Shown here piece after piece: positions 2,146-18,865 of a DNA stretch of 64,000 bases. The stretch is from contig JAZDLW010000019.1 of NCBI GenBank assembly GCA_043801595.1, positions 1 through 64,000 of the forward strand, written 5' to 3'. The DNA is from Candidatus Aenigmatarchaeota archaeon (GTDB lineage: Archaea > Aenigmatarchaeota > Aenigmatarchaeia > JACPZZ01). The notes beneath the pieces are model-generated. The model saw nothing but the letters and a program-made list of their open reading frames with translations, made no database searches and was not told the origin of the DNA. A program made the position numbers and the translations under genes. Within the stretch, counting starts at the first letter, position 1. Each line of letters opens with the position of its first letter.

Positions 2146-2369
2146 GATCCGCAAGGAAACCTTAGGTTCCAAGTTTACCCGAAGGTAAACTGGAGCAGTT
2201 TTGTTTCGACAAAACTAGCATCCTTACCGGTCTATCCTTCCTAAATACACCTTTCCTAATTTTTATTCGCTCCTTTAAATCGTTTCTACGCGGTTTTGAC
2301 AGGTATGTTGGACAATAAGCGAAGTTCGCGTACGTTAATTATATATTGCTTTGTGTTCAAAGACGGCTT

Positions 2370-3416
2370 ATGGTCGGCATAGTAGGGTACGGCGTCTATG
2401 TTCCCAAGTTCAGAATAAAGGTTGAGGACATAGCAAAGGTGTGGAACAAGGATGCGGATTCGATCAAAAGTTCGCTAGGGATAGCCGAGAAATCCGTTGC
2501 GGGCATAGACGAGGATACTGTTACGATTTCGGTGCAGGCGGCGAGAAACGCCGTTAACCATGCAGGAATCGATCCGGTTGATATAGGCGCGATTTTTGTG
2601 GGTTCAGAGTCGCATCCGTACGCAGTCAAACCAACAGCAACGATTGTCGCAGAGGCGATTGAAGCGACGCCCGAAATGACTGCGGCCGACACCGAATTCG
2701 CATGCAAAGCCGGAACAGTTGGCATACAAATGTGCATGGGGATGGTCGGTTCTGATATGATAAAATACGGAATGGCTATAGGTTCGGACACAGCGCAAGG
2801 CATGCCGGGTGATGTGCTGGAATACACAGCGGGCGCGGGAGGCGCTGCTTTCATTGTTGGTAAAGATTCTGTTATTGCGGAAATAGAGGACACTTATTCG
2901 TACACAACAGACACGCCGGATTTCTGGAGGAGGGATTTGCAGCAATTTCCAAGGCACGGATCAAAGTTCACTGGTGAGCCGGCGTATTTCAAACATGTGA
3001 TCGCAGCCGCGAACGGCATACTCGAAAAAACGGATTCAAAAATTAATGATTTCGATTTCGTCGTTTTCCACCAGCCGAACGGCAAGTTCCCGTTGCGCGC
3101 AGCAAAAATGCTCGGCGTGCCTGTTGAAAAATTAATGCCGTCGCTTTTCGTAAACAAGATCGGCAATACGTATTCAGGCGCTTCGTTGATCGGACTCGCC
3201 GGCGTCCTTGATATCGCAAAAGCGGGACAAAAAATTCTTGTAGTTTCATACGGCTCGGGTGCAGGGTCTGACGCGTTTATAATGAAGACCACAGACCTTT
3301 TGGAGAAGAAGAGAAAGAACTCTGTCAAGGTTAGTGAATATGTTGATAAAAAAGAGTACATCGATTACTCAATATACCTGAAAAACAGGAATGCGATTGT
3401 CGGGAGCGGTGCTTGA
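2370..3416 (+). CDS. hmgB: Hydroxymethylglutaryl-CoA synthase (archaeal)
   Basis: [19 protein letters not shown] (catalytic Cys), [24 protein letters not shown]; start moved to ATG 2370. Confidence 0.95.
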
Positions 3417-3418
3417 TA

Positions 3419-4585
3419 ATGAGGAAAGTCGCAGTCATAGGCGGCGGCCTTTCGAAATTCGGCGAACACTGGGACAAAGGGCTAAAGGAATTAATAGCCG
3501 AAGCCGGAATAAACGCGATTGTAGATGCGGGCATATCCGGAAAAGAGATAGACGCTGTTTACGGCGGCACAATGTCAGCGGGCGGTTTCTCAAAACAGGA
3601 GCACATTGCGGCATTGACAGCGGATCAGATGGGGCTCAATCCTCTTCCAGCTGTGCGCGTTGAAGCTGCTTGCGCATCAGGAGGCGTCGCATTGCGCCAA
3701 GCGTACATTTCCGTAGCTTCTGGTGTTCACGATGTTGTTATTGTGGGCGGCGCGGAAAAGATGACGGACGTGAGCATGGAGCAGGCTACTACGATCCTTG
3801 GCGGCGCGTCGGATTATGAATGGGAAGTATTCCATGGCGCGACGTTCCCGGGCATATACGCAATGATGGCAAGAAAGCACATGGCAGATTTCGGCACAAC
3901 AGAGGAACAGATGGCTGCGGTGGCTGTGAAGAATCATGACAACGGTTCGAAGAACCCTTACGCCCAATTCAGGAATAAAATAACAATAGACGATGTTTTG
4001 AAATCCCCGCCAGTTGCGACGCCATTAAAATTGCTTGACTGCTCGCCGATTTCGGACGGTGCGGCTGCGGTTGTTTTAGCGTCGGAAGAATTTGCGAAGA
4101 AAATGAAATCGGATCCTGTATGGATCGCAGCGTCAGCGCAGGCAAGCGACACGCTTTCCCTGCACGACAGGAAATCGCTCACAGAAATAAACTCGACCAA
4201 AGTTGCCGGAGCAAATGCGTTCAAGCAGGCGGGCATTACGCCAAAGGACGTGAATTTGGCAGAGGTCCATGACTGTTTCACGATCGCAGAAATACTGGCA
4301 ATAGAAGATCTTGGTTTTTTCCAAAAAGGAACAGGCGGTAAGGCGACGGAACACGGAGAAACTGCGTTAAACGCCGGAATATCCATAAACACATCCGGCG
4401 GCCTGAAAGCGTGCGGTCATCCTGTAGGAGCGACTGGTGTAAAACAAGCTGTTGAAGTGCTGTGGCAGCTGAGAAACCAGGCAAAGGAACGACAAGTCGC
4501 GAACGCAAACATCGGTCTGACGCATAATGTCGGAGGCTCGGGCGGAACGTGCGTCGTACACATATTTACGAGGGATAAGCAATGA
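3419..4585 (+). CDS. Acetoacetyl-CoA thiolase (archaeal)
   Basis: EAACASGG, EVHDCFT, GHPVGATG, HNVGGSGG; conserved HMGCS-thiolase-DUF35 context. Confidence 0.93.
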   Translation: MRKVAVIGGGLSKFGEHWDKGLKELIAEAGINAIVDAGISGKEIDAVYGGTMSAGGFSKQEHIAALTADQMGLNPLPAVRVEAACASGGVALRQAYISVASGVHDVVIVGGAEKMTDVSMEQATTILGGASDYEWEVFHGATFPGIYAMMARKHMADFGTTEEQMAAVAVKNHDNGSKNPYAQFRNKITIDDVLKSPPVATPLKLLDCSPISDGAAAVVLASEEFAKKMKSDPVWIAASAQASDTLSLHDRKSLTEINSTKVAGANAFKQAGITPKDVNLAEVHDCFTIAEILAIEDLGFFQKGTGGKATEHGETALNAGISINTSGGLKACGHPVGATGVKQAVEVLWQLRNQAKERQVANANIGLTHNVGGSGGTCVVHIFTRDKQ

Positions 4586-4989
4586 AAGGTGTTGCATCTT
4601 CGTGGAGAAGGATGAAGTATAGGTACAATCTTTACTCCACGAAATGCGAGAATTGCAGCGGAATATTCTTCCCGCCGAGGATAATATGTCCGAGATGTAG
4701 AAGGGCGGGAAAGATGATTGAACTGAAATTGAGCGGGCGAGGAAAGATTGTTTCGTTCACAACAATACACTCCCCGCCAGAAGGATACACTTTCCAGACC
4801 CCATACCTGCTTGCCATAATAAAGCTGGAGGAAGGGCCGATGTTAACCACACAGGTTGTTGAAACCGAAGAAAGCGCAATAAGGATAGGAACACAGGTTG
4901 AAATGGTTTTCAGAAAGCTTATCGACCATGGGGAAGAAAATCTTATATCATACGGCTACAAGTTCCGCGTTGCGGACAAGCAGGTTTAA
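4582..4989 (+). CDS. DUF35 Zn-ribbon/OB-fold scaffold of the thiolase-HMGCS complex
   Basis: CENC...CPRC Zn ribbon followed by OB fold; overlaps thiolase stop. Confidence 0.9.
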   Translation: MKGVASSWRRMKYRYNLYSTKCENCSGIFFPPRIICPRCRRAGKMIELKLSGRGKIVSFTTIHSPPEGYTFQTPYLLAIIKLEEGPMLTTQVVETEESAIRIGTQVEMVFRKLIDHGEENLISYGYKFRVADKQV

Positions 4990-4991
4990 CC

Positions 4992-6269
4992 ATGATTTCA
5001 GCCAAAGAAGTTTTCGAGAAATTAAAGGCCGGCGAAATACGCTTGCACGAAATTGAGAATTTCGTTTTCAACGCGCTCGGCAGCGGTGCGGACTGGAAGG
5101 AAGCCTGCGCGATTGCGGCCGAAGCGCGCATACTGTTTATAGAAAATTTAAAGGGGAAAAAATTCCCTGGCATAAGGTCGCATTACATAAGCACAGGCGA
5201 CAAGGCGAAGATCGTCGGGATAGAAAATCAGATCGGCGGGGCTACGATTCCTCTTGGCATAGGCGGACCGCTTGAAATACGCGGTGCTTACGCAAAAGGT
5301 TTGTTTTACTTGACGCTGGCGACAAACGAAGCTGCGTTGATAGCAGGACTGTCAAGAGGGGCGAAGGCGATAAACGAAAGCGGCGGCGTAAAAACCACAG
5401 TAACGAGGGACTGGATGACGCGCGCGCCCGTCCTTGATTTGGGATCCATTGAAGATGCGAAAAAATTAATTGATGCGATAAACGACGACAAGGAATTTTA
5501 CGGAAAAATAAAATCCGCGGCCGAAGCGGAAACGAAAGTTTCAAAACTCGGGTTCATAGAGACGTTCCAGATCGGAAAAAAAGTATGGCTGCGATTTGCG
5601 TTCGAAACGGGCGACAGCATGGGAATGAACTCTGTGACGAAATATTCGGCCAATGCGATCAAAGAAGTCAAGAAAAAGTTTGAAAGCGCGAAGTTAATCG
5701 CGCTTTCGGGAAACATGTGCTGCGACAAGAAATCCAACCACACGAACATAATTCTCGGGCGCGGAAAAGCTGTCGAGGCTGAAACGACCATTAAGAAAGA
5801 TGTTCTCAAAAAAATTTACAACACTGATGCGAGGACGATAGAGAAAATAAACTTCACAAAGAATTATCAGGGTTCCGCATTGGCAGGAACGCTTGGCGGG
5901 TTCAATGCAAATGCCGCGAATACGGTTGCTGCAATATTCCTTGCAACAGGCCAGGATGCTGCTCAAATCGTTGAATCGTCGTCCTGTTTTGTGACAGCAG
6001 AAGATAATAATGGTGACTTGTATTTTTCAATTTCCATGCCGAACCTTGAGGTTGCGACAATAGGTGGCGGAACGAATTTCGCAACAGCGAAAGAATGTCT
6101 TGAGATACTCGACTGCGCCGGGGCTGGAAAAAATCCGGGCGACAACTCCAAAAAACTTGCGGAAATAATCGCGGCGGCCGTGCTTGCACAAGAACTTAAT
6201 TTGCTGGGTGCGCTTTCAAACGATTACGAACTCGCAGAATCGCACATAAGATTGGCGAGAGGGAAATGA
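4992..6269 (+). CDS. hmgA: HMG-CoA reductase, class I (NADPH)
   Basis: ENQIG, LATNEAAL, GDSMGMN, LSGNMCCDKK, TGQDAAQ, C-terminal catalytic His (ESHIRL). Confidence 0.93.
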   Translation: MISAKEVFEKLKAGEIRLHEIENFVFNALGSGADWKEACAIAAEARILFIENLKGKKFPGIRSHYISTGDKAKIVGIENQIGGATIPLGIGGPLEIRGAYAKGLFYLTLATNEAALIAGLSRGAKAINESGGVKTTVTRDWMTRAPVLDLGSIEDAKKLIDAINDDKEFYGKIKSAAEAETKVSKLGFIETFQIGKKVWLRFAFETGDSMGMNSVTKYSANAIKEVKKKFESAKLIALSGNMCCDKKSNHTNIILGRGKAVEAETTIKKDVLKKIYNTDARTIEKINFTKNYQGSALAGTLGGFNANAANTVAAIFLATGQDAAQIVESSSCFVTAEDNNGDLYFSISMPNLEVATIGGGTNFATAKECLEILDCAGAGKNPGDNSKKLAEIIAAAVLAQELNLLGALSNDYELAESHIRLARGK

Positions 6270-7993: not shown

Positions 7994-8422
7994 ATGGATA
8001 CAAGCCAGATACTGAAAAAATACCAGATTATAGCAGTAATCGGATGCTCGACGGATGTTACAAAAGATTCGAATATTGTTCCAGCGTATATGCTTTCGAA
8101 AGGATTCCGTATAATACCGATAAACCCCAACGGAGGAACGATTCTCGGGCAAAAATCCTACAAATCCATGGAAGGGATCCCCTACGACCGTAAATCGCGA
8201 ATAGAGATCGTAAACATATTCCGTCCTTCTTCCGAGCTGTTGCCGATAGTCCACTCGATTGTCAAAGACAAAAAAGCCATGCCTTCGTTGAAAGTCATAT
8301 GGGCACAGCTTGGCATACAGGATGAGGCGGCGAAACAACTGGCAGAACAGAACGGGTTTACTTTTGTCCAAAACCGCTGCATGATGAAGGATTACAAGGT
8401 TAAATTTTCCGTTTCCATTTGA
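7994..8422 (+). CDS. CoA-binding protein (YccU-like)
   Basis: IAVIGCS, IPINP, IVNIFRPS, VIWAQLGI, VQNRC. Confidence 0.88.
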   Translation: MDTSQILKKYQIIAVIGCSTDVTKDSNIVPAYMLSKGFRIIPINPNGGTILGQKSYKSMEGIPYDRKSRIEIVNIFRPSSELLPIVHSIVKDKKAMPSLKVIWAQLGIQDEAAKQLAEQNGFTFVQNRCMMKDYKVKFSVSI

Positions 8423-9779
8423 CGCCTGCGGGTGTGTCTTCGAGAATTATTCCCATGCTTTCAAGCTTGTTCCTTATCTCGTCGGATTTTTTGTAGTCCT
8501 TGTCTTTTCTCGCCTTTTCGCGTTCATTGACAAGTTTTTTAATGTTTTCGGATACAACAATCTTCGAATAATTTTCAAGTACCCCCAAAAGGCCGGCAAG
8601 TTCGAAAATAGTCGTTCTTAAGAAGTTTTTCGAGTCTGCCCCGATTTTATCGTTTTCAGACGTGTATTTGTTCACCAGATCAACCAGTTCAAACAGCGAT
8701 GATATCGCCTCAGGCGTGTTGAAGTCGTCGTCCATACTCTCAACGAAGTCGTCTTTAATTTTTTGGACCGCTTCATCGATTTCGCTATCGCTCCCGCCTT
8801 TTTCTTCGATGTTATCTAGGGTCGCGACAGCATTGTACAATGTGCCGAGCGTGTTCTTTGTCCGCACAAGGCTTTCTTCGTGAAAATCCACCTGGCTCCT
8901 GTAGTGGGACATTGCAAAGAACAATCTCAATACCTCCGCGTTGTATTTTTTCAACGCATCCTTTATTGTTATGAAGTTTCCGAGCGATTTCGACATCTTT
9001 TCTCCGTTGACCAGAAGAAAACCGGAGTGAGTCCATATTTTTACCATCGGCTTCTTTCCGGACATGGATTCCATCTGCGCGATCTCAGCCTCATGATGTG
9101 GGAATATCAGGTCTATCGCGCCGCCGTGCAAGTCGTACTGCGAACCCAGGTATTTTTCGGCTATGGCGGTGTCTTCTATATGCCAGCCTGGCCTTCCGAA
9201 ACCGAAAGGCGAATCCCAGCCAAGCTCGGATTTATCGCGTTTTTTCCACAAAGAGAAGTCCTGCTGGTTCTTTTTTGTCGTGTCTGGTTCGATTCGATGC
9301 TTGCTCAATTCCTCCGTGTTCTGGTGCGATAATTTTCCGTAATCAGCGAATTTCGTTATGTCAAAGTAGACGCCTGTCTTAGTTTCGTATGCGACCTCTT
9401 TTTCGATCATTCTTCGTATCTGGCTTATGATTTCGTTTATGTGCTCTGATGCCCGTGCGAACTTATCGATACTGCTGATACGAAGCGATGTCATGTCGTC
9501 CATGAACGATTTTTCAAACTGCGTTGCGATGTCTTTCGGATTTTTTCCGGTCTCCTTTGCACGGTTTATTATCTTGTCGTCGACGTCGGTTATATTCATC
9601 AAAAAGAAAAGATCGTATCCGCGGTAGCGGAGATATTTTGCGATTATGTCGTACGCGGTGTAAGTCCGTGCGTGTCCTAAGTGCGAGTTATCGTAAACGG
9701 TCGGGCCGCACACAAACATCTTTACGTCCGTTTTCGTCAATTCTTCCTTTTTCTTTGTTAGCGTATTGAATATTCTCAT
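8400..9779 (-). CDS. cysS: Cysteine--tRNA ligase
   Basis: CGPTVYD, HLGH, GRPGWHIE, DLIFPHHE, KMSKS. Confidence 0.97.
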   Translation of the reverse strand: MRIFNTLTKKKEELTKTDVKMFVCGPTVYDNSHLGHARTYTAYDIIAKYLRYRGYDLFFLMNITDVDDKIINRAKETGKNPKDIATQFEKSFMDDMTSLRISSIDKFARASEHINEIISQIRRMIEKEVAYETKTGVYFDITKFADYGKLSHQNTEELSKHRIEPDTTKKNQQDFSLWKKRDKSELGWDSPFGFGRPGWHIEDTAIAEKYLGSQYDLHGGAIDLIFPHHEAEIAQMESMSGKKPMVKIWTHSGFLLVNGEKMSKSLGNFITIKDALKKYNAEVLRLFFAMSHYRSQVDFHEESLVRTKNTLGTLYNAVATLDNIEEKGGSDSEIDEAVQKIKDDFVESMDDDFNTPEAISSLFELVDLVNKYTSENDKIGADSKNFLRTTIFELAGLLGVLENYSKIVVSENIKKLVNEREKARKDKDYKKSDEIRNKLESMGIILEDTPAGVKWKRKI

Positions 9780-10177
9780 ATCAAACCCCTTTCAATAAGG
9801 AACGGAAGTATTTTTTGTTTCGTTATGGGCGTTACTATTTCAACGGGCGCAGCCTCAAGATTCTCGCGGCTAAACCATTTCAGCTCTTCTATGTCTTTTG
9901 TCGTGTGCGGTTCGTTTTTCAGTTCGCCCGTATAAGCGCGTATATGCAAAGACATTTCGCCGGTCTCGTATGAGAATTCGTTCATAAATTTCAACGTCTC
10001 TTCCTTGGCAATTGTTCCGACCTCTTCAATCAATTCGCGCTGCAGGCATTGGAGATCATTTTCGCCTTCTTCAAACTTACCGCCAATTGTCAGGAACCTA
10101 TTGTCATTCGGTTCACGCGAAAGCAGAAGTTTCTTGTTTCTTATCAGAAACAACGCACACTTGTTGATCGTTCTCAT
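9776..10177 (-). CDS. NUDIX hydrolase
   Basis: GGKFEEGENDLQCLQRELIEEVG Nudix box. Confidence 0.85.
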   Translation of the reverse strand: MRTINKCALFLIRNKKLLLSREPNDNRFLTIGGKFEEGENDLQCLQRELIEEVGTIAKEETLKFMNEFSYETGEMSLHIRAYTGELKNEPHTTKDIEELKWFSRENLEAAPVEIVTPITKQKILPFLIERGLI

Positions 10178-10355
10178 AAAAATACTATTAGAATTTTGTA
10201 GATTAAAGCATTAAATCCGTTATTGCGAAGTTCCGGTTAAACAAATAGCCCGAATGTCGAATAGATGATAACGTCGATAAAACGGCCGGACGGTTTTTTA
10301 TAGCTGCAAAGCTTCCAGTTTTTTCGAAAATGCAGGCGTGAAAAATTAGACGGGA

Positions 10356-11513
10356 TCATTTTTTGTGCTTGAATACCGATGTTAGCGGTTCATTTAATAT
10401 GAATTCGTGCATCCTGTTTCGGGCGTCAGCCAGTTTTTCCTGATGTTCCAATAAAAGCTTCTTGACTTTGGGCGTCACTTCTTTTTTGTGTTCGCCGCAC
10501 ATAAGCTGTCCTGATCTGCATGCCTTGTAAACGGAATCGTCATTCAAAAAATTGTTCGCGTCCAATCCGTAGATCGGGCAGATTTCAGGTATTCCGCCCC
10601 TTTCGCGCTGTAGATCTGCGATCGCACTTCCGCCGTTGTACGATGTTTTTATCAGTTTCTCCGCCCTTTCCGGTGTGTCTGTAAGAAATATCGCAGACTC
10701 GGGCCTTGATGTGGACATTTTTCCCTTGCCGTCAAGACCGAACAAAAATTTAGTGCAAACTTCCGCCGGAGGAACCATACCTTTTTTCTTGGCAATGTCC
10801 CGCGCAAGCTGTATGTACGGGTGTTGGTCAATGCCCACCGGGATTACGGTTGGCTGCGTGCCGCCGAATTCTTCCAATTGCGGCAGAAGGATCTGTGCAA
10901 GTTGTACGGCGCCCCTGTAAAAAACGACACCAATGTTTTGGCTTTCATCAACGCCGAAAACACCGTTTATTTTGCCTACTGTCAATTCGCGGGATATATC
11001 AATCGCAAGGTTATAGATATTCGTGTAATCGGAGTCCACGAAAATCCTGGTTTTTCCCGGTTTGAAACCCATTGCTATTATGCTTGGTATTACGTCTTCG
11101 TATGCGATTCGTCTTGATTCTCCAAGCGAGTCCTTTTTGCGCACCAGATACGTTTCATCGTTCGTAACAGGTATGTAAACTGTAGCTCCCTGCTCCTGAA
11201 ACCATAGCAATTCGTCGAAGATCGCCTTATGACCGAGGTGCAGCGGGCCGGACGGGTTAAGGCCTGATACGGCAGCCCACCTGTCGCCGTTTTCCATTGC
11301 TGGCGCAACCGATTCCAAATCCTTGTGCGCATATGTCACGCCCATTTTCATGAATCTGCTCGGAGACGGATGATAGGAAGCGAACCTTGAGACACTTTTC
11401 AGTCCGAGTTCTTCCATTTTTTGTTCGTAGAATCGGCGTTCTTTTTCCCCCAACGCAAGTTTTATGCTGTAATCCTTTTCCACCATTTCGAGCATTTCTT
11501 TAGAGTATGCCAC
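10356..11513 (-). CDS. trpS: Tryptophan--tRNA ligase (divergent TrpRS, paralogue B)
   Basis: SGLNPSGPLHLGH, PVGIDQHPY, KMSTS, CRSGQLMCGEHK; QLAQILLPQ replaces the usual QAADILxPQ. Confidence 0.8.
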   Translation of the reverse strand: MAYSKEMLEMVEKDYSIKLALGEKERRFYEQKMEELGLKSVSRFASYHPSPSRFMKMGVTYAHKDLESVAPAMENGDRWAAVSGLNPSGPLHLGHKAIFDELLWFQEQGATVYIPVTNDETYLVRKKDSLGESRRIAYEDVIPSIIAMGFKPGKTRIFVDSDYTNIYNLAIDISRELTVGKINGVFGVDESQNIGVVFYRGAVQLAQILLPQLEEFGGTQPTVIPVGIDQHPYIQLARDIAKKKGMVPPAEVCTKFLFGLDGKGKMSTSRPESAIFLTDTPERAEKLIKTSYNGGSAIADLQRERGGIPEICPIYGLDANNFLNDDSVYKACRSGQLMCGEHKKEVTPKVKKLLLEHQEKLADARNRMHEFILNEPLTSVFKHKK

Positions 11514-11517
11514 AATA

Positions 11518-12528
11518 TCACCTTAATACCAAAATAATATTTTTTCCCAAACTATCAGCAACAGTTCTTCGCAACTCCTCCGGAGTTATCTTACCTTCGT
11601 AATAAAGTTCAGGAATTTCCAGAGGAGAGGATTCGCCTTTCAATCTTTTTCCCGCCATTTCGGATATTATTCCGATATCAAGAACGGGATTCGGAAGTGA
11701 CGGATTTTTTGAGATGAATGAACGTTCAATAAGCGCACGCGCCTCTTCGGGAGTTGTCCTTCCGGCGATAATACGGTTCGCGTGCAGTCTTTTGCTGTCC
11801 GCCTTGTACGCGGTTATTCCGAACTCTTCCTCCTCGTGCGAAAAGAAATAACTCCAGCCAAGCCCAACCGGGAATGTCGGGGATAAAAATACGGATAAGA
11901 TGCGCGGATAGCCGAGTTTGTCAGCAACTCTTCTGCTTACCGAATCGTAAAGGTCTTCTCTCGGCGGACCGACTTTAATATCGAAATTCAGAATCGTGTT
12001 TATTTCGTCGAACGAGTACCCGAAGCCCCTCTGTTTTTCGATTTCCGTTTTGCTGGGCGGTACTGTTTTTTCCACCATTTCCATAAGAGACGGGTCGGCG
12101 TTGCAAATTTTACTTACCTGTGCCAATCTTTTCTGGAATTCCGGAGAGTCGATATATTCGCTCATCTTAATCACTTTAAGACCTGTCCCGTAAACTTCGT
12201 TCACAGTCTTTACAAAGTCTGCCCTCTCTTTCCCGAGTTGCATGTAACGATATTTTAAATTATCAGATACGTTCCTGCACGCCGCGCTATCCGCAACCAA
12301 TATTGTCGGCTCAGTTTTCCATCCGTTGTCGCGCAGACTCTTTCCGAGTTCTGAAACAAAGAAGTAATACTTCATGCTGTCGATTGTATTTCCGTAGTCA
12401 TCGTAGGTTTCCCCGTAAAATATTCTTGTCGCGTCCGGTTTTCTGGAATCAGCCCTCGCTCTAATTTCTTCGGTATCGGGGTGTTCGATTACCAGCCCTC
12501 TCTGAGAGAATAATTTGCTAATTTCCAT
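11518..12528 (-). CDS. TyrRS-fold protein lacking HIGH motif (class Ic aaRS-like / CDPS-like), paralogue 2
   Basis: By-eye alignment to archaeal TyrRS: ILVAD, MSEYIDSPEF, YSFDEINTI, DIKVGPPRE, YKADSK, TPEEARALI, ITPEELRRTVADSL; clearly paralogous to 12538-13485. Confidence 0.6.
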   Translation of the reverse strand: MEISKLFSQRGLVIEHPDTEEIRARADSRKPDATRIFYGETYDDYGNTIDSMKYYFFVSELGKSLRDNGWKTEPTILVADSAACRNVSDNLKYRYMQLGKERADFVKTVNEVYGTGLKVIKMSEYIDSPEFQKRLAQVSKICNADPSLMEMVEKTVPPSKTEIEKQRGFGYSFDEINTILNFDIKVGPPREDLYDSVSRRVADKLGYPRILSVFLSPTFPVGLGWSYFFSHEEEEFGITAYKADSKRLHANRIIAGRTTPEEARALIERSFISKNPSLPNPVLDIGIISEMAGKRLKGESSPLEIPELYYEGKITPEELRRTVADSLGKNIILVLR

Positions 12529-12537
12529 GATCTCAGC

Positions 12538-13485
12538 TTACGCGAAGAAATTGGCTACGTAAAGATTTAAGTAGCTGAGCGCCATATTTTTAAGTTTTTT
12601 GTCGGACATGCCATCTGTTGAGAACGGACGGATGTCGTTTTCCACTCTTTGCCTTGCCAAGTCGGCTGTTACCAGAACGTGTTCCACGGCTTTTCTGTTC
12701 TTAGAAGATCTAATCAGATACCTTGCCTTGTCGCCGTCAAACGGATCAAGACATATTCTTCTTTCCTGCATACCTTTGCTGCTTAGCTTGTACGGCAGAA
12801 GACCGAATGGAATTTCTTCTTCGGTGTCCCCCAGCGGCTGTATTTCCGTGAGATGAATGGCCGCGTATTTTTTCAAACCCGCCGCGGGTCCGAACCTTCT
12901 TGCTGGTTTGTCGTACATCGCCTCGTATGGGGGACCGACTTTGATGTCCGTATCCCACGCGGCAATTGATGCTAGCTCTTCCAACGGGTAATTGATAGAA
13001 TCTTTATTGTTTCTTCTATCTTCAGGCACGGCCATTGAAACAAGCGATGCGAATCGCGGATTGGTTTCCATTTCCTGTTTCAACTTATTTAATGTCTGCT
13101 GATATTCCGGTGTTTCACGCAATGCGGATGAGAATTCCATGTGAATCTTTCCTTTATATGCAAAGTTTATTCTGTCCAAAAAATTCCAGCGCCTGATTCC
13201 GTAAATACACGCTTCATCGTCGGTCATGTCCTTGTTTATATCGGTCAGAAAGTGGTCTGCGAGAAGCATGCCTGCGTTGGATTCTACGCCTCGCTCAGCC
13301 AGAATATCCTGAAAGTTCATCATAAACAGGCTATATTTCATCATATCGAACGGCTGGCCCGCGCGGTCGTATGTCTGCCCCATCATTATTTGGACAGGAT
13401 TTTTATTTCTTTGTATGGTTTTGAGTTCTTCCATACCTAGTACATCCGCAACAAGTTGCGGTTGTTTGAGATATTCCAATAGCAT
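12538..13485 (-). CDS. TyrRS-fold protein lacking HIGH motif (class Ic aaRS-like / CDPS-like), paralogue 1
   Basis: GQTYD, LLADHFLTDIN (cf. TyrRS LLADLHAYLN), YPLEELASI (cf. YPIMQVNDI), DIKVGPPYE (cf. DVAVGGMEQ), YKLSSKG (cf. KMSSSKG). Confidence 0.6.
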   Translation of the reverse strand: MLLEYLKQPQLVADVLGMEELKTIQRNKNPVQIMMGQTYDRAGQPFDMMKYSLFMMNFQDILAERGVESNAGMLLADHFLTDINKDMTDDEACIYGIRRWNFLDRINFAYKGKIHMEFSSALRETPEYQQTLNKLKQEMETNPRFASLVSMAVPEDRRNNKDSINYPLEELASIAAWDTDIKVGPPYEAMYDKPARRFGPAAGLKKYAAIHLTEIQPLGDTEEEIPFGLLPYKLSSKGMQERRICLDPFDGDKARYLIRSSKNRKAVEHVLVTADLARQRVENDIRPFSTDGMSDKKLKNMALSYLNLYVANFFA

Positions 13486-13488
13486 AGC

Positions 13489-14997
13489 TCACACCATCAA
13501 ATCGTTTTTCAATTCATTTACAATGTCGTACCATTTCGTCCTGTTCCTTTTTGATTCATCCACAATCGCCCGCGAAGGCAGCGGCGTCCAGAATGAAGGT
13601 TGAGATGTTTTTCTTCCCTGCGCACGCGCAAGCGCGTATTCGTAGACTTCTGTGCGCCTGTCGTAGTGTGAAAGCAGCTCATCCTTCAAATGTTGCTGGA
13701 CGATGTCACAGTTGTACTGACCGTTTTTTTCACATTCGCCAACAAGATAGTGACTCATTATTCTTGATCTTTCTTCCGGCGTTTTAGCAGCTTTCAGCGA
13801 ATCGTTCACAGAAGCTGGCGGGTTTTCACAAATTTCCCTGAAATTTATTTTGTTATAGCGGTTGAATTCACGCAGATACCTTACCATGTCCAACGCGCAA
13901 AATTCCGTGGCTTCTGTTGTGTTTGCGATTGAATACGATAGTTTTTCCGTTTCGGTTTTTAACCTGTCGGCGAGCGAAAGTTTTTGAGGGCCGGCGCCAA
14001 CGAACAACGTGCTATCGGGCTGGCTCGAACTGGCCTTGTTTCCGGTCAGACCTCTCATGTGCGGTATGTAAAATGCGGATGGCACGGTTTGCAATCCTGC
14101 AACAGGATTTACGCTTGACAGCGAATTTTTTATCATCTCAAGCGTCATAGTCATATGGCCGTCTTGGTCAGGGCCGCTGACCATGAATGAATGGTAGTTC
14201 GCGAAATCAGGGTGTTGCGGCAGAATTATGTCTGCGGCTTGCGATGCCCCGGCAAACAAGAACGGAAAGTTTTCCGCCAGCTTTTCAAATTTGTAAGTGT
14301 CTATTGCGAAATCAAAATTAATCGTAGCTATCAAACCTGCGGCCATTTCACTTGCCCTTTTTTCTTCTGATTGCAGATACACGTGTGCGGCGTCCAAGTT
14401 TATTCCATTCGCGCCCCAATCGAGCAGGTTATCGGCAGCCCAGTATTCGTATCTTTTTCTGCGCGATAACGAAGGATCGGATTCCATCAATTTTTTTTCT
14501 GTGCCCGCTTCCACATCGGCGACAGGGATGAATACCTGAGCGCCGTTTCTTTGAAAGTAAACTATCGTGGATGCGGTAAGCTTGTGCCCGAAGTGGACAG
14601 CGCCGCTCGGTTTGAAGCCGGATGCTATTCCCATGGTCTTTTCATTATTCAGCGCGTCTACCAATCCTGCGCCATTTCTCTGCCTGATTGCGCGCTGCGA
14701 CACTATGGGAAGTCCGCTGTCAAATTTTTCAAGCTCTTCGTACAATCCTGTCGCTGCCGGCTCCCCTTCTTCTGTGAGGTACCGTGATTCGTAACCAGAC
14801 GGTCCGCCGCTTTGGAGCTGCTTAAAGATTATGTCGTAGTTTTTTGTCCTAATTCTTCGTAGATCACCGTTTTCATCATCAGGAATTTTTGTCAGTTTAC
14901 CTTCAGGCGGTGTTACCCATTTTCCACCCTTTTTGTAATACAATCCTGTGGGTATGTTATCGAAAGAAACAGCATCGTCTTTTCCAGAGTTTTCCAT
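13489..14997 (-). CDS. TrpRS-like protein (paralogue A) with N-terminal extension and atypical C-terminus
   Basis: SGFKPSGAVHFGH, FIPVADVEA, QAADIILPQ, SGPDQDGH, GNKASSS (degenerate KMSKS). Confidence 0.75.
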   Translation of the reverse strand: MENSGKDDAVSFDNIPTGLYYKKGGKWVTPPEGKLTKIPDDENGDLRRIRTKNYDIIFKQLQSGGPSGYESRYLTEEGEPAATGLYEELEKFDSGLPIVSQRAIRQRNGAGLVDALNNEKTMGIASGFKPSGAVHFGHKLTASTIVYFQRNGAQVFIPVADVEAGTEKKLMESDPSLSRRKRYEYWAADNLLDWGANGINLDAAHVYLQSEEKRASEMAAGLIATINFDFAIDTYKFEKLAENFPFLFAGASQAADIILPQHPDFANYHSFMVSGPDQDGHMTMTLEMIKNSLSSVNPVAGLQTVPSAFYIPHMRGLTGNKASSSQPDSTLFVGAGPQKLSLADRLKTETEKLSYSIANTTEATEFCALDMVRYLREFNRYNKINFREICENPPASVNDSLKAAKTPEERSRIMSHYLVGECEKNGQYNCDIVQQHLKDELLSHYDRRTEVYEYALARAQGRKTSQPSFWTPLPSRAIVDESKRNRTKWYDIVNELKNDLMV

Positions 14998-15194
14998 GTA
15001 AACTCCAACTATAACTATTCGTGAATCGCAAGAGATTTAAGGTGCACGCATTCCGGCAATGTTTAAATAGGCGCGAAATTCTAATTAGTTAAGGTAATCG
15101 GTGATGCCGTACCAATGGACGCTCAGTTTGGGATAGACAACGGTTCTGTTATTTCTATCAAGATCAAAAAAATCGAATTTACGGGAAGAGAGTT

Positions 15195-16274
15195 ATGAAT
15201 ATCGAAAATATTGTCCGAAAATCTATCATCGACATGGGCGTAAAGGAATATGCACCGGATAAACAGGAAAAGACGCACAAATTTGATTTGTCGCTGAATA
15301 TAAACCCGTTCGGAGTTTCGGACAGGGTAATGGATAAGATACGCTCGATTTCACCGCCTGTAGTAAACAACTATTACGCTGAAAATCAGGATTTGAAAAT
15401 TGAAATATCGAATTACGTTGGCGTGAAACCGGAACAAGTTTTATTGGGCGACGGCTGTGACGGCTGCATAGAGATGATTGCACACACGTTCATTGAAAAT
15501 GGGGACGAGGTGTTAATACCTGTTCCTACGTTCCATCGATACGAGTTTCACACAGATCTTATGGGCGGGACGCCTGTGTTTTGCGAGATGAATGAAAATT
15601 TCGAGATAGATGCTGGAAAACTTCTGGAAAAGGCTACGGACAAAACGAAGATAATATTCCTCTGCGATCCCAATAACCCCACGGGTCTTGCGATAGACGA
15701 CACAATAAAGGAGAATATAATCAGAAGATTCCACGGAATCGTAGTAATAGACGAAGCCCTTGCCGACACCGCCGGGATAAACGGTTCGAAACTCGTGGAC
15801 AAGCATGACAATCTTATAGTCGTACGCTCATTTTCCAAGACTTTTGGCATAGCATCACTGAGAGTAGGATACATCATATCCAATGAAAAAATCGTTCGGG
15901 AGGTAAAGAAGACATCGTCGCCGTTCAAGGTCAACGGTTTGGCGCAGGAAGCTGCGCTTGAAGCGCTGCGTGACAAGGATTACATCAGGAAATCCAAGGA
16001 GTTTATAGACAAAGAAAAGAATTTTTTGTTCGACAGTCTTAAAACAATTGGTATGAAGTTTACCGATACTAAGACCACAAATTTCCTTCTCGACATCACG
16101 CCAACAGGACTCTCGACGTCTGAATTCGTTGATAGGCTGAAAGAAAAAAACGTAATAGTCACAAACGCAACCGTTTTCCGGGTTTCCGAAGATAAGTTTG
16201 TCAGGGTGTGCATTAGCGACCATGAGAGCAATGCCAAGTTCATAGATGTGATACGGGAGATCTGTGGCGATTGA
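15195..16274 (+). CDS. PLP-dependent aminotransferase, histidinol-phosphate/aromatic (HisC-like)
   Basis: LSLNINPFG, CDPNNPTG, IDEA, RSFSKTFGIASLRVGY (PLP lysine). Confidence 0.88.
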   Translation: MNIENIVRKSIIDMGVKEYAPDKQEKTHKFDLSLNINPFGVSDRVMDKIRSISPPVVNNYYAENQDLKIEISNYVGVKPEQVLLGDGCDGCIEMIAHTFIENGDEVLIPVPTFHRYEFHTDLMGGTPVFCEMNENFEIDAGKLLEKATDKTKIIFLCDPNNPTGLAIDDTIKENIIRRFHGIVVIDEALADTAGINGSKLVDKHDNLIVVRSFSKTFGIASLRVGYIISNEKIVREVKKTSSPFKVNGLAQEAALEALRDKDYIRKSKEFIDKEKNFLFDSLKTIGMKFTDTKTTNFLLDITPTGLSTSEFVDRLKEKNVIVTNATVFRVSEDKFVRVCISDHESNAKFIDVIREICGD

Positions 16275-16319
16275 GTGCAAACGCTTTAATAATCTTTGTT
16301 TCAATACCTTTCAGGTACA

Positions 16320-17012
16320 ATGCCACAACTTTCTGATCTTCGCGTGAAATTGGACCAGATGACCGGGAGAATAACCAGCAAACTCAAAGACAGGTCAAGG
16401 TTTCCGTTGAATACGCCTGTTTATGTGCCGGATGCGATCCCGATAGCAGGTAGAAGTGGCGTATCGCTTTTTGAGTTTGCTATTGAAGGACTGGAAAGGT
16501 ATCATGCTTCGTTGGGCAGGTACAATTATCCGGACCAGTTTCCATTGCTGAGGAATGAAGAGCGTTCAACAGTGTATAGACACGTGCCTCCGGCGGACGT
16601 GAGCGCAGTAAGCATAAGCATAGGAAGTGACATGGTAAATTTCTACCGCGATTTTCTAAAGAACCTTTGCACAGATCATAGCGAGGATCCTATATCGTTC
16701 GGAGAAACCGCTTACTGTGATGCAGACCTTCTTGAATTAACTCACGAAAGAATAAATCTTGGAAGATATGTCGCAGAATCAAAATTACAGAGAGAGCCGT
16801 CTGTAAGAGATTTTGTCGGCGATGAGAAATTGCTTACCCCGAAGTTGAGGGATCTTGGCAGGGAGGAACAGGTCGTATCAAAGGCGAAAAATATTGCCGG
16901 CCAGTATGAACTTTCACAGGATGTAGCGGAAAAATACATGCGATGGATTATTTCAGAAACGATCAAGGTCGAGGTCGAATATCTGCAAAAAAAATTCCAG
17001 CCTGTCGGCTGA
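16320..17012 (+). CDS. Chorismate mutase, eukaryote-like AroQ-beta (Aro7-type)
   Basis: LSDLRVKL, RSRFPLN, HASLGRYNYPDQFP, RINLGRYVAESK, WIISETIKVEVEYL parallel the yeast/plant chorismate mutase motifs. Confidence 0.8.
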   Translation: MPQLSDLRVKLDQMTGRITSKLKDRSRFPLNTPVYVPDAIPIAGRSGVSLFEFAIEGLERYHASLGRYNYPDQFPLLRNEERSTVYRHVPPADVSAVSISIGSDMVNFYRDFLKNLCTDHSEDPISFGETAYCDADLLELTHERINLGRYVAESKLQREPSVRDFVGDEKLLTPKLRDLGREEQVVSKAKNIAGQYELSQDVAEKYMRWIISETIKVEVEYLQKKFQPVG

Positions 17013-17169
17013 TGTTCTGGTTTTTAACTGACAAAAAGCTCCATTCAAAACTGCTTGACGTAGCGTCTGCGAAAAAATTTAACATCGAAACCAATGATAT
17101 GTTAAGCCGTTACACCTTTTGCACGAATCGATTCTGTTGTTTTTATTTCTGGTTGTGCAATAAAATCAT

Positions 17170-17787
17170 ATGGGCGGGCCCGAAACGACTAAGCAGAGTT
17201 ATGACAAGTCGGCATCCTTATGGGCAGACAACCATTGGACACACAACCAAGAAAAAGATTTGGGTCTAATTCCGATTCTGAAAAAATTTGTTGAAATAAT
17301 CGGTAATAGGGGATCGGTATTGGATGCGGGTTGCGGTCCTGGAAGGGACACCAAGTTTTTGCTCGAGTGTGGGATAAAAACAATAGGTATAGATTTTTCC
17401 GACGGTATGCTGGAAGAAGCAAAAAAAAGAGTTCCCAACGGTGATTTTAGGAAAATGGATATGAGAGTTCTCGACTTCGAAGATAACGCATTTGAAGGCG
17501 TATGGGCGTGTGCGTCGTTGCTGCATTTTCCGAAAAATGAAATTTCAAAATCCCTGAAGGAATTTGGCAGGGTATTAAAACCGAACGGAATTTTGTGCGC
17601 GCTTGTAAAAGAAGGAACAGGGGAAGGGATAGAAACAGAGAAATACGGTCCCAGATTTTTTGCTTATTATCAGAAGGAAGAATTCGAAAATAAAGTAAAG
17701 GAAAGCGGTTTTGAAGTGGTCGATTCAGGGATCAACAAAGGAGAAAAGTGGAACTGGATATGGGTATTCGCAAAGCCAGACAAGTAA
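17170..17787 (+). CDS. Class I SAM-dependent methyltransferase
   Basis: VLDAGCGPGRD, GIDFS, VWACASLLH, LKPNG. Confidence 0.9.
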   Translation: MGGPETTKQSYDKSASLWADNHWTHNQEKDLGLIPILKKFVEIIGNRGSVLDAGCGPGRDTKFLLECGIKTIGIDFSDGMLEEAKKRVPNGDFRKMDMRVLDFEDNAFEGVWACASLLHFPKNEISKSLKEFGRVLKPNGILCALVKEGTGEGIETEKYGPRFFAYYQKEEFENKVKESGFEVVDSGINKGEKWNWIWVFAKPDK

Positions 17788-17809
17788 TTTCCGGCGTAGT
17801 TAAAATTAA

Positions 17810-17968
17810 AGCTCGGAGGGAGAGTCGAACTCCCCTTTGACGCTTTCTGCCTCTTTTGATCAAACTTTTTCAAAACAACGAAAACAATCATGTTTTCGTG
17901 CACAGGAAATATTATGTTTCCTGTGAGTTTGACTGCAGGCGCCCACATAGCCGATCTGTCATCCGAGC
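17810..17968 (-). tRNA. tRNA-Cys(GCA) with 88-nt intron at 37/38 (17845-17932)
   Basis: GCTCGGA...TCCGAGCT; GGCGC-CTGCAG|intron|A-GCGTC; CTGC/GCAG central helix with AAA bulge; spliced length 71 nt. Confidence 0.9.
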
Positions 17969-18865
17969 TCAATAGTATGTGTTCATGTACCTGTCCGCAC
18001 TATCTGGCAGGACTGTCACAACAGTGCCGGATTTGATTTTCTTTGCAATCTTTAATGACGCAACAACATTGGCACCGGAGGAAATTCCTACGAACAACCC
18101 CTCTTCCTCGGAGAGTCTTGCGGCCATCGTTATCGCATCCTTATCTTTGACTTTGATGGTTTTATCTATTAAATTAATTCTATCCTCTACCAGCTTAGGT
18201 ATAAACCCCTCCCCGATACCTTCGATACGATGCATTCCGGGCTTTCCTCCTGTTAATACTGCGGAATTGAAAGGTTCGACAGCCACTATTTGCGTATCCG
18301 GCGCTTTCTTCCTGAGAATCTCTGCGATTCCCATCAGAGTGCCGCCGGTTCCGACTCCTGCGACGAACGCGTCGACGTGCCCCACTTCACGCAATATTTC
18401 GTTGGCAGTTTCGTGATGCGCATTGACATTGTCGACGTTCTCGAACTGGTTCAATAAAACCATACCATTGTTCGCTAATAGTTTTGCCTTTTCAATTGTT
18501 CCGTACACACCGAGTTTTTTCGGCGTTAGGACGACTTTTGCGCCGTAGTGCTTCATTATTCTTGCCCTTTCTTTGCTCGCGAACTCGGGCATGACAGCAA
18601 CGAATTTGTAACCCTTTATTGCGCATATCATAGCGAATGCTATGCCCGTGTTCCCTGTGGTCGGCTCAACGATTGTCATTCCCGGACGGAGGATCCCCTT
18701 TCTCTCAGCGGATTCTATCATGTATTTTACAATCCTGTCTTTAACAGAACCGCTTGGATTCAGGAATTCGGCTTTGGCGTACAGTTTCACACCTTTGAGT
18801 TTTGTTATCTTCTTTATTCTTACTATTGGCGTGTTTCCAATCCATTTCAAAATATTGACAGGCAT
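17969..18865 (-). CDS. cysK: Cysteine synthase (O-acetylserine sulfhydrylase)
   Basis: IGNTP, NPSGSVKDR, PTTGNTG, GVGTGGT, GISSGA; start moved to ATG 18865 after GGTGAT. Confidence 0.92.
   Translation of the reverse strand: MPVNILKWIGNTPIVRIKKITKLKGVKLYAKAEFLNPSGSVKDRIVKYMIESAERKGILRPGMTIVEPTTGNTGIAFAMICAIKGYKFVAVMPEFASKERARIMKHYGAKVVLTPKKLGVYGTIEKAKLLANNGMVLLNQFENVDNVNAHHETANEILREVGHVDAFVAGVGTGGTLMGIAEILRKKAPDTQIVAVEPFNSAVLTGGKPGMHRIEGIGEGFIPKLVEDRINLIDKTIKVKDKDAITMAARLSEEEGLFVGISSGANVVASLKIAKKIKSGTVVTVLPDSADRYMNTYY

What the first reader, a model, noticed from the sequence alone, without database searches (positions are those of the whole stretch)
11518..13485. HIGH-less TyrRS-fold pair with cyclodipeptide-synthase-like residues: a possible aaRS-to-CDPS intermediate
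Seen: where TyrRS has GFEPSG..HLGH, these have G-[EQ]-T-Y-D with no HIGH. Where TyrRS has YPxxQ, they have YxxxE (YPLEE, YSFDE). They keep a vestigial KMSKS region (YKLSSKG, YKADSKR) and C-terminal helices resembling the archaeal TyrRS anticodon domain (ITPEELRRTVADSL vs LHPMDLKNAVAEEL). Known: CDPSs such as AlbC derive from class Ic aaRSs, lost the ATP motifs, use a GxS nucleophile and a YxxxE catalytic Glu, and lack the anticodon domain. Inference: ATP-independent aminoacyl-tRNA-utilising enzymes with a Thr nucleophile (GxT) that still retain the tRNA-binding domain.
Basis: partly seen in the sequence, partly recalled or inferred. Interest (0 to 1): 0.85.

Follow-up and report, generated by a model that had tools for sequence, protein, structure and literature searches.

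The report
Known synthetase look-alikes, probably starvation helpers
These two genes encode ATP-motif-less look-alikes of the enzymes that load amino acids onto tRNA; they belong to a gene cluster described in 2017 whose function is unknown, and they more likely help a tiny archaeon keep its tRNA correctly loaded when tryptophan is scarce than make cyclic dipeptides.

Summary
The motifs are real. Both proteins (A, 12538-13485; B, 11518-12528) model confidently as full-length archaeal TyrRS folds (Z 24.5 and 24.7) without HIGH. They are the 'ORF1' proteins of the TrpRS-A cluster of Mukai et al. 2017, flanked by two extra TrpRS paralogues (T1, T2). A T2-type gene follows B in 50 of 50 related loci, fused in 2. 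A modelled B:T2 complex passes its controls through a surface that is not the usual class Ic dimer face. Profiles and a tree place the family beside CDPSs, as a sister rather than an intermediate. It is not a CDPS: the cyclisation Tyr and the Pro of YxxxExP are missing, and the Thr is lost in distant members that keep the core. Relatives sit beside tRNA-Trp, -His, -Phe or -Tyr, the matching synthetase and a racemase or aminotransferase, and mostly avoid that same amino acid. This marks a starvation module and argues against a product that consumes it. Best guess (0.35): an ATP-independent deacylase clearing D- or non-cognate aminoacyl groups from tRNA. No activity is shown.

The parts
13489..14997 (-). 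T1: TrpRS paralogue ('TrpRS-A-like'), 502 aa; HIGH (HFGH) and a KMSKS-like KASSS kept; C-terminal part unlike the TrpRS anticodon domain
   Evidence: PF00579 72.9 bits, residues 119-357; H135, H138, Q253, D256, Q278, K321 invariant in 16 of 16; directly upstream of A in 11 of 11 A-containing loci
12538..13485 (-). A: HIGH-less TyrRS-fold protein ('ORF1' partner of T1), 315 aa
13366..13380 (-). A motif G36-Q-T38-Y-D40 (position of CDPS GxS)
   Evidence: Thr in 27 of 32 A-type, Ser 2, Val 1, gap 2
12976..12990 (-). A motif Y166-xxx-E170
   Evidence: Tyr and Glu in 32 of 32 A-type
11518..12528 (-). B: HIGH-less TyrRS-fold protein ('ORF1' partner of T2), 336 aa
12400..12414 (-). B motif G39-E-T41-Y-D43; the HIGH position downstream reads D50-S-M-K53
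   Evidence: Thr in 164 of 166 B-type; register
12004..12018 (-). B motif Y171-xxx-E175 (TyrRS Y151/Q155; AlbC Y178/E182)
   Evidence: E175 in 154 of 166 B-type
11944..11982 (-). B family signature D183-I-K185-V-G187-P-P-R-E191-x-x-Y194-D195, the most invariant stretch across all subgroups
   Evidence: K185 in 241, G187 in 243, E191 in 243 and D195 in 244 of 245 sequences
11833..11859 (-). B aromatic insertion 224-232 before the KMSKS-like loop; predicted docking surface for T2
11791..11808 (-). B KMSKS-like remnant Y241-K-x-x-S-K246; lysines kept in A and B, mostly lost in groups C and E
10356..11513 (-). T2: TrpRS paralogue ('TrpRS-A2'), 385 aa; HLGH and KMSTS intact, anticodon domain intact, three of four cluster Cys (C312, C332, C339; His at 342), altered pocket helix (R200, Q207)
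   Evidence: TIGR00233 222.7 bits over cut-off 176.75; the genome has a separate TrpRS (C13) and TyrRS (C23)
15195..16274 (+). Divergently transcribed HisC-family aminotransferase, no Trp residue; probable keto-acid salvage partner
   Evidence: same family in 6 of 50 related loci, Trp-free in 7 of 7 including this one
16296..17012 (+). Plant/yeast-type chorismate mutase fold; role unexplained, since no chorismate synthase or prephenate dehydratase/dehydrogenase was found in this 86% complete genome
   Evidence: in 9 of 50 related loci

Best explanation
A and B are ATP-independent, TyrRS-derived enzymes of an aromatic-amino-acid starvation module, each paired with its own active TrpRS paralogue (A with T1, B with T2). 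Shown computationally: the fold; the loss of HIGH; a kept and more acidic alpha-amino-binding set (Y171, E175, E191); tight genetic coupling of B to T2; a modelled B:T2 contact that leaves both normal dimer faces free; and association of the wider family with one tRNA, its synthetase and a racemase or aminotransferase. Inferred: when Trp is scarce the module salvages it from D-Trp or the keto acid and adds synthetase and tRNA. B, docked beside T2, binds the aminoacyl end of tRNA and hydrolyses wrong cargo (most likely the D-isomer, otherwise a smaller non-cognate residue), returning tRNA and amino acid to the pool. This would be the CDPS-type aminoacyl-ester chemistry with water as acceptor; Thr41 may carry a transient acyl-enzyme in A/B but is not needed family-wide. 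I put about 0.75 on 'an enzyme acting on an aminoacyl group, serving supply of the cognate amino acid' and 0.35 on deacylation specifically.
For: Coupling: a T2-type gene follows B in 50 of 50 loci (next gene in 43, one M28 peptidase gene between in 4, fused in 2, convergent in 1; in L030 B was seen only as the tblastn match). Further fusions: P0191, P0157. Complex: ipSAE 0.80, best of 3 controls 0.00; that mark was reached by 116 of 157 solved and 2 of 215 mismatched pairs (counts hold only roughly, own alignments used); runs agree in at least 96% of contacts, partner pLDDT at least 88; interface T2 43-49/66-75 with B 224-232/271-278. tRNA link: a tRNA-Trp gene abuts B in 25 of 50 loci. Among 20 distant loci, tRNA-His lies near 4 His modules and tRNA-Phe, -Tyr and -Trp directly before one module each. 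Starvation signature: in CPR-type loci B lacks Trp in 21 of 23 and T2 in 22 of 23, against 31 of 135 other ORFs. His modules have 1 His in 1599 residues (27 expected) and racemases 0 in 1199, with normal Trp in the ORF1-like proteins. Group C (mostly TrpRS-linked) modules have 2 Trp in 2285 and racemases 0 in 1880, with normal His. The Phe module has 3 Phe in 287 (kin are not independent). D-amino-acid context: 26 of 33 genomes with a family hit carry the two-Cys racemase, adjacent in 24, against 52 of the other 338. DTD1 and DTD2 are each found in only 1 of 371 genomes of the phylum.
Against: No activity was measured and model coordinates could not be inspected. In 18 of 20 racemase loci from genomes without a hit there is no family member next to the racemase (several end at contig edges), so a racemase plus synthetase can apparently do without it. 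This genome has no racemase of that type (86% complete), and no tRNA-Trp was found near the operon. The window's own A, B and T2 each hold 2 Trp, so the starvation signature is weak here. L114 and L119 (beside HisRS) and the Tyr module protein are not depleted of their cognate residue. DTD absence is phylum-wide and so does not discriminate. T1 is not Trp-depleted and lacks a recognisable anticodon domain, which a pure editing model does not explain. That TrpRS, TyrRS, PheRS and HisRS can charge D-isomers is recalled, not checked in a paper here.
Confidence: 0.35

Rival explanations
1. Salvage hydrolase on small molecules: A/B release Trp (His, Phe, Tyr in relatives) from amides or esters with a free alpha-amine, such as D-residue peptides, and hand it to the racemase or the docked synthetase; tRNA is not the substrate.
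For: Neighbours are salvage enzymes: M28 peptidase 4, OSBS/N-acyl-amino-acid-racemase-like 4, VanX-like 3, LD-carboxypeptidase 2, TrpB2-like 2 of 50 loci. The gene is optional beside racemase+HisRS, where other supply genes fill the slot. Anticodon-end positions are not conserved.
Against: The whole tRNA-binding domain fold is kept; tRNA genes abut the ORF; generic peptidases would do this job.
Confidence: 0.2
2. Non-catalytic partner: a pseudo-synthetase that binds amino acid or tRNA and stabilises or tunes TrpRS-A (Mukai et al. suggested binding to, or heterodimers with, TrpRS-A).
For: 50 of 50 coupling, fusions and a predicted stable contact; E175 is Ala in 9 of 166 B-type; pseudo-dimeric TyrRS precedent (PMC9437257, passage).
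Against: Invariant residues cluster in the pocket, not the interface. Groups C and E sit beside the genome's only TrpRS (5 of 5 tested) or a HisRS, a class II enzyme (only copy in 4 of 5), and lack the docking insertion. The modelled interface is not the class Ic dimer face, which argues against a pseudo-dimer.
Confidence: 0.2
3. On-tRNA repair or transacylation: B epimerises D-aminoacyl-tRNA to L, or moves an aminoacyl group between tRNAs through an acyl-Thr41 (the first CDPS half-reaction run both ways), keeping UGG decoding alive without ATP.
For: Thr41 in 164 of 166 B-type at the AlbC S37 position; two Glu and a Lys around the alpha-carbon site; module tRNA-Trp genes carry A73 in 20 of 20 bacterial-type loci but G73 in 5 of 5 archaeal loci, the opposite of each host's norm (norm from PMC5370408), as expected of a dedicated carrier.
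Against: No Thr in groups C and E; a free racemase would make an epimerase redundant; no precedent known to me.
Confidence: 0.15
4. CDPS-like peptide-bond former: A and B use aminoacyl-tRNA from T1/T2 to make cyclic or, more plausibly, linear dipeptides, possibly with a D-residue from the racemase.
For: G-x-T, YxxxE and CP1-region similarity to CDPS; tree; dedicated synthetases; a language-model neighbour cluster is auto-named 'putative cyclodipeptide synthase' (a lead only).
Against: No Y202 or P184 equivalent, and Y202 is needed for cyclisation (PMC5935735, passages); cognate-amino-acid avoidance; tailoring genes typical of CDPS clusters are not recurrent among neighbours; CDPS HMM matched by 1 of 34 and 0 of 26 members at E up to 10.
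Confidence: 0.1

Closest known systems
TrpRS-A / TrpRS-A-like / ORF1 clusters of DPANN archaea and CPR bacteria (Mukai, Reynolds, Crnkovic, Soll 2017, PMC5370408)
   Same: Same architecture: ORF1 always with TrpRS-A, TrpRS-A-like in archaea, a canonical TrpRS besides, tRNA-Trp(A73)-ORF1-TrpRS-A-bacterial TrpRS in CPR, Trp-free CPR proteins. A and B are ORF1; T2 is TrpRS-A2; T1 is TrpRS-A-like.
   Different: The paper read a putative HIGH motif and a missing Rossmann fold; the models here show a complete class Ic fold with HIGH lost. It gives no function, no interface, and does not describe the racemase-, HisRS-, PheRS- or TyrRS-linked relatives in the text I read.
Cyclodipeptide synthases (AlbC, Rv2275, YvmC; PF16715)
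   Same: Class Ic-derived Rossmann plus CP1 fold, no HIGH, Gly and hydroxyl residue after strand 1, YxxxE helix; weak but in-register profile similarity; sister position in the tree.
   Different: A/B keep the C-terminal domain and a KMSKS-like loop, have Thr not Ser, lack Y202 and P184 equivalents, and add invariant K185, E191, D195; operon context is tRNA, synthetase and salvage genes.
Archaeal/eukaryotic TyrRS (2cya, 1j1u; PF00579) and the pseudo-dimeric Leishmania TyrRS (3p0h)
   Same: Full-length fold (Z 22-25), amino-binding Tyr; one HIGH-less unit fused to an active unit in some genomes.
   Different: No HIGH; both Gln become Glu; Tyr-hydroxyl readers lost (F37, T178); predicted contact with the partner is not through CP1; the partner is TrpRS-like.
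Trans-editing deacylases (DTD1, DTD2, YbaK/ProX, AlaX)
   Same: Proposed role only: free-standing, ATP-independent removal of wrong aminoacyl groups, often tied to a synthetase (PMC7373986, passages).
   Different: No sequence match and a different fold; none known to me derives from a class I catalytic domain.

Membership tests
TrpRS-A/ORF1 cluster (Mukai 2017) | Unannotated ORF always linked to a TrpRS-A or TrpRS-A-like gene | tested here: met
   50 of 50 B loci with a T2-type gene; 11 of 11 A loci with T1
TrpRS-A/ORF1 cluster (Mukai 2017) | Present in addition to a canonical TrpRS | tested here: met
   Separate TrpRS on C13 and TyrRS on C23
TrpRS-A/ORF1 cluster (Mukai 2017) | Bacterial form: tRNA-Trp(A73) - ORF1 - TrpRS-A1, Trp-free proteins | tested here: met
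   20 same-strand tRNA-Trp genes, all A73, directly before homologues of B; Trp-free 21 of 23 and 22 of 23
TrpRS-A/ORF1 cluster (Mukai 2017) | TrpRS-A2 four-Cys motif | tested here: inconclusive
   Window T2 has C312, C332, C339 and His342; the fourth Cys is present in 14 of 44 homologues
TrpRS-A/ORF1 cluster (Mukai 2017) | Sequence identity to the published ORF1 proteins | not testable with these tools
   The paper's figures are not held; membership rests on architecture and taxa (Microgenomates-group bacteria, DPANN archaea)
Cyclodipeptide synthase | Rossmann plus CP1 fold without HIGH | tested here: met
Cyclodipeptide synthase | Catalytic Ser (GxS, AlbC S37) | tested here: not met
   Thr in 164 of 166 B and 27 of 32 A; Gly in most of groups C and E
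Cyclodipeptide synthase | Y178 and E182 | tested here: met
   Y171/E175 and Y166/E170 align to the CDPS YxxxE
Cyclodipeptide synthase | Y202 (cyclisation) and P184 | tested here: not met
   YxxxE is not followed by x-P, and the following strand ends K-x-G-P, with Gly where AlbC has Y202; the register is inferred through TyrRS, not from superposed coordinates
Cyclodipeptide synthase | No C-terminal tRNA-binding domain, no KMSKS | tested here: not met
   Domain present (aligned to residue 336 and 315); K242 in 160 and K246 in 125 of 166 B-type
Cyclodipeptide synthase | PF16715 or TIGR04539 cut-off | tested here: not met
   11.3 bits against 27; 12.1 against 45
Cyclodipeptide synthase | Forms cyclodipeptides from aminoacyl-tRNA through an acyl-enzyme | not testable with these tools
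   needs an assay
Class Ic aaRS (TyrRS/TrpRS) | Catalytic plus anticodon-domain fold | tested here: met
   Z 24.5, rmsd 3.0, 287 aligned and Z 24.7, rmsd 3.0, 282 aligned to 2cya
Class Ic aaRS (TyrRS/TrpRS) | HIGH motif | tested here: not met
   Position reads D50-S-M-K53
Class Ic aaRS (TyrRS/TrpRS) | KMSKS motif | tested here: inconclusive
   YKxxSK aligns near it; lysines kept in A/B, mostly lost in C/E
Class Ic aaRS (TyrRS/TrpRS) | Homodimer through CP1 | not tested
D-aminoacyl-tRNA deacylase (DTD1/DTD2) | PF02580 or PF04414 sequence family | tested here: not met
   No hit at E up to 1; proposed likeness is of function only
D-aminoacyl-tRNA deacylase (DTD1/DTD2) | Hydrolyses D-aminoacyl-tRNA | not testable with these tools
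   needs an assay

The most novel reading that the evidence does not exclude
A and B are living members of the sister lineage of CDPSs and carry out a new ATP-independent reaction on charged tRNA: D-to-L epimerisation of the aminoacyl ester, or transfer of an aminoacyl group between tRNAs through an acyl-Thr. They would work docked on a dedicated synthetase and, in many relatives, with a tRNA-Trp whose discriminator base is the opposite of the host's, letting auxotrophic DPANN/CPR cells keep translating when one aromatic amino acid runs out.
Probability: 0.15. Interest if true: 0.9.

Novelty: new member of a known kind. Interest (0 to 1): 0.55.

Why it matters
The ORF1 proteins have been an unexplained part of the translation machinery of DPANN and CPR since 2017. 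This analysis corrects their fold, proposes a specific docking surface on TrpRS-A, names residues to mutate (T41, E175, K185, E191, D195) and shows a wider family re-tuned for Trp, His, Phe or Tyr shortage. If they are deacylases, they would be proofreaders built from a synthetase catalytic domain in a phylum that lacks DTD1 and DTD2. Whatever they do, they look like the closest full-length relatives of CDPSs, which makes the origin of tRNA-dependent peptide-bond enzymes testable.

Tried and rejected
Sequence searches of solved structures with B or its profile gave nothing meaningful. Pfam scans of 53 distant hits gave only the fused TrpRS parts and scattered hits below cut-off. BshC (Z 10.9-11.1) and PvcA/DIT1 (Z 9.0; atlas neighbour) share the fold class but score far below TyrRS and were not pursued. 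A canonical B:T2 pseudo-dimer was considered and is not what the model gave. A locus scan with the group C alignment could not be run for lack of a conserved stretch; a genome search was used instead. An anticorrelation test with DTD1/DTD2 was uninformative because both are nearly absent from the phylum. My first idea, a linear L-D dipeptide ligase with K185 binding an acidic side chain, was dropped: the racemases have a hydrophobic residue where P. horikoshii aspartate racemase has the Arg recalled to bind the side-chain carboxylate, and the modules avoid their cognate amino acid. No Rfam element was found in 9500-18500, and promoter and terminator counts are at shuffle level. The operon's GC and GC3 match the genome, so recent transfer is not shown, though no A/B-type match was found in 6 of 6 same-genus genomes (71-91% complete). 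Literature searches found no paper other than PMC5370408 on this cluster; the library lacks most subscription journals. No supplements were read; those of PMC5370408, and its figures, may hold alignments that bear on residue assignments.
Full report
OBSERVATION. They are 27% identical and match no Pfam or NCBIfam family above cut-off. They are the middle of a four-gene run with gaps of 3, 9 and 4 bases: T1 (13489-14997) - A - B - T2 (10356-11513). T1 and T2 are TrpRS paralogues with intact HIGH and KMSKS-like motifs. The genome, a 0.81 Mb assembly, 86% complete, of DPANN type judged by its relatives, has its own TrpRS and TyrRS elsewhere. An aminotransferase and a plant/yeast-type chorismate mutase are transcribed divergently.

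FOLD AND RESIDUES. AlphaFold2 models (pLDDT 95.0 and 96.1) match archaeal and eukaryotic TyrRS over their whole length: Z 24.5, rmsd 3.0, 287 aligned and Z 24.7, rmsd 3.0, 282 aligned to 2cya. CDPSs match only the first 220 or so residues: best Z 12.3 and 14.6 (9j61), AlbC 10.7 and 10.9. For comparison, Sauguet et al. give Z up to 10.7 for AlbC against class Ic enzymes (PMC3105412, passages). Profile alignment to 20 DPANN TyrRS places G39, Y171, E175 and E191 on the TyrRS residues numbered G34, Y151, Q155 and Q173 in M. jannaschii; these contact the substrate (PMC3105412 section 12), and that the last three hold the alpha-amino group is partly from that text and partly my own knowledge. The HIGH position reads D50-S-M-K53. 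The two Tyr-hydroxyl readers become F37 and T178. K185 lies two residues before the Gly that ends the strand, the place of AlbC L200 at the pocket floor; this register is inferred, and I could not view coordinates. Over 245 family sequences (166 B, 32 A, 25 C, 11 D, 11 E; proteins under 250 aa were left out, and two D rows are doubtful), K185, G187, E191 and D195 are nearly invariant (241, 243, 243, 244). T41 is kept in B (164), A (27) and D (9) but in none of C or E. E175 is lost in 12 B-type.

RELATION TO CDPS. A, B and whole-family profiles hit a small CDPS profile (5 DPANN-type sequences) with YxxxE in register (E 5.7e-4, 1.2e-3, 9.4e-5); group C gave E 0.014; TyrRS, T1 and T2 profiles gave E 0.09-0.2, out of register. 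A 43-row tree of the catalytic core separates family+CDPS from TyrRS/TrpRS at 99/95, and forcing CDPS with TyrRS is rejected (p-AU 0.0099). The CDPS branch is long, the alignment is at about 15% identity, only one CDPS subfamily was sampled and the tree is unrooted. The fair reading is probable common origin; CDPSs fall outside the Thr-bearing clade, so 'intermediate' is not shown. Membership fails on Ser, Y202, P184 and the retained C-terminal domain. Y202 is needed for cyclisation and E182 is the proposed base for peptide-bond formation (PMC5935735, passages).

PRIOR DESCRIPTION. Mukai et al. [quoted passage not shown] They saw putative HIGH and KMSKS motifs, thought the Rossmann fold missing, and left function open. 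The architecture here is the same. A search for both names returned only that paper. A review of duplicated synthetases (PMC9437257, passages) and Aravind et al. 2010 (PMC2922099, abstract and passages) did not mention the family in what I saw.

GENE CONTEXT. In 50 GTDB loci (the patterns favour B-type) a T2-type gene follows B in 50: next gene in 43, behind one M28 peptidase gene in 4, fused in 2, convergent in 1. A occurs in 11, always behind T1. A tRNA-Trp gene abuts B in 25: 20 on the same strand, all A73, many ending a few bases before the start codon, and 5 divergent archaeal ones, all G73. Racemase (8), aminotransferase (6) and chorismate mutase (9) recur; racemase and aminotransferase never share a locus among these. 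A folded B:T2 pair scored ipSAE 0.80 against 0.00 for the best of 3 controls; that mark was reached by 116 of 157 solved and 2 of 215 mismatched pairs, roughly applicable since my own alignments were used; runs agree in at least 96% of contacts and partner pLDDT is at least 88. The contact joins the T2 N-terminal extension (43-49, 66-75) to a B-specific aromatic insertion (224-232) and 271-278. It is not the CP1 face through which class Ic enzymes dimerise, so it is less likely to be recalled from solved dimers. It supports binding and does not show it.

WIDER FAMILY. A search of 1.84 billion representatives gave 205 hits at E up to 0.001. A profile of the distant group C hit 33 of 371 genomes of the phylum. 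I fetched 20 of these places: the gene sits with a two-Cys racemase or an aminotransferase and with TrpRS, HisRS, TyrRS or PheRS. The neighbouring TrpRS is the only one in 5 of 5 genomes tested and HisRS the only one in 4 of 5. Of the 33 genomes 26 have the racemase, 24 next to the gene, against 52 of the other 338. The modules avoid their own amino acid: His modules 1 His in 1599 residues and racemases 0 in 1199, with normal Trp in the ORF1-like proteins; group C modules 2 Trp in 2285 (L102 left out because its start was over-extended) and racemases 0 in 1880, with normal His; the Phe module 3 Phe in 287, its aminotransferase 3 in 366; CPR-type B and T2 Trp-free in 21 and 22 of 23. Exceptions: L114 and L119, the Tyr-module protein, T1, and the window's own A, B and T2 (2 Trp each). 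Such avoidance is the known mark of genes expressed when that amino acid is short (my own knowledge). Against an obligate role: 18 of 20 racemase loci from genomes without a hit have no family member beside them (20 loci from 19 of 52 such genomes, chosen by racemase score).

MECHANISM. A pathway switched on by Trp shortage should not spend Trp on a secondary product, so the CDPS reading falls to about 0.1. The pocket keeps the amino-binding residues, loses the ATP motif and keeps tRNA-binding architecture, which fits an enzyme acting on an aminoacyl ester. Salvage through racemases raises the D-isomer pool, and the phylum has DTD1 and DTD2 in only 1 of 371 genomes each, so proofreading of charged tRNA is my best single guess (0.35). 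Small-molecule salvage (0.2), a non-catalytic partner (0.2) and on-tRNA epimerisation or transacylation (0.15) remain open. The chorismate mutase is unexplained: no chorismate synthase, prephenate dehydratase or dehydrogenase was found in this genome.

EARLIER NOTES OF THIS SCAN (unchecked AI notes, not support) report the same cluster in other genomes and similar pseudo-synthetases behind T-box or TrpR control; I did not test those regulatory claims.

VERDICT. Real, already described as a cluster, function unknown. The CDPS kinship is partly right, the CDPS function probably wrong. Interest 0.55.

Noticed in passing
L004:91-164, L009:9882-9952, L014:3018-3088, L016:6875-6945, L019:7703-7773: tRNA-Trp genes divergent from B in five archaeal loci all have G73, the bacterial discriminator, while the CPR module tRNAs have A73; in both domains the module tRNA looks orthogonal to the host TrpRS.
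   Followed up: partly
L024-L049, tRNA-Trp 3' ends: In many CPR-type loci the ORF1 start codon follows the tRNA-Trp 3' end within 0-3 bases, so tRNA processing would leave a leaderless mRNA.
   Followed up: no
L122, L125, L126, L128, L131, L136, L137, L139, L140: Racemase plus HisRS pairs, both with 0-1 His, occur without the ORF1-like gene; two (L126, L131) carry a 200-216 aa ORF whose N-terminus recalls HisG (from memory, untested).
   Followed up: no
window 16296-17012: Eukaryote-type (plant/yeast) chorismate mutase fold in a DPANN-type genome with no detectable shikimate or prephenate enzymes; conserved in 9 of 50 loci.
   Followed up: partly
L114:7419-8876: A divergent second HisRS-like gene (485 aa) directly upstream of a group E member, echoing the T1/T2 arrangement with a class II synthetase.
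   Followed up: no
L074 (G000:C23) and L026, L027, L030: A YbaK-like editing domain matches directly upstream of this genome's TyrRS (fusion not checked), and YbaK domains are fused singly or doubly to CPR TrpRS next to the module.
   Followed up: no
L026, L028, L030, L032, L034, L037-L039, L041, L043, L044, L050: Records titled Gammaproteobacteria or Pseudomonadales carry loci that look like Microgenomates-type CPR DNA; titles or binning may be off.
   Followed up: no
L055:1447-2130: A bona fide CDPS in a genome of the same class has Cys in place of the catalytic Ser.
   Followed up: no
window 8400-10177: A NUDIX gene and CysRS follow T2 on the same strand after a 178-base gap; they did not recur in the 50 related loci, so they are probably not part of the module.
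   Followed up: partly
window 2346-6269: Mevalonate-pathway-like run (thiolase, OB-fold partner, HMG-CoA reductase by inspection; not scanned).
   Followed up: no
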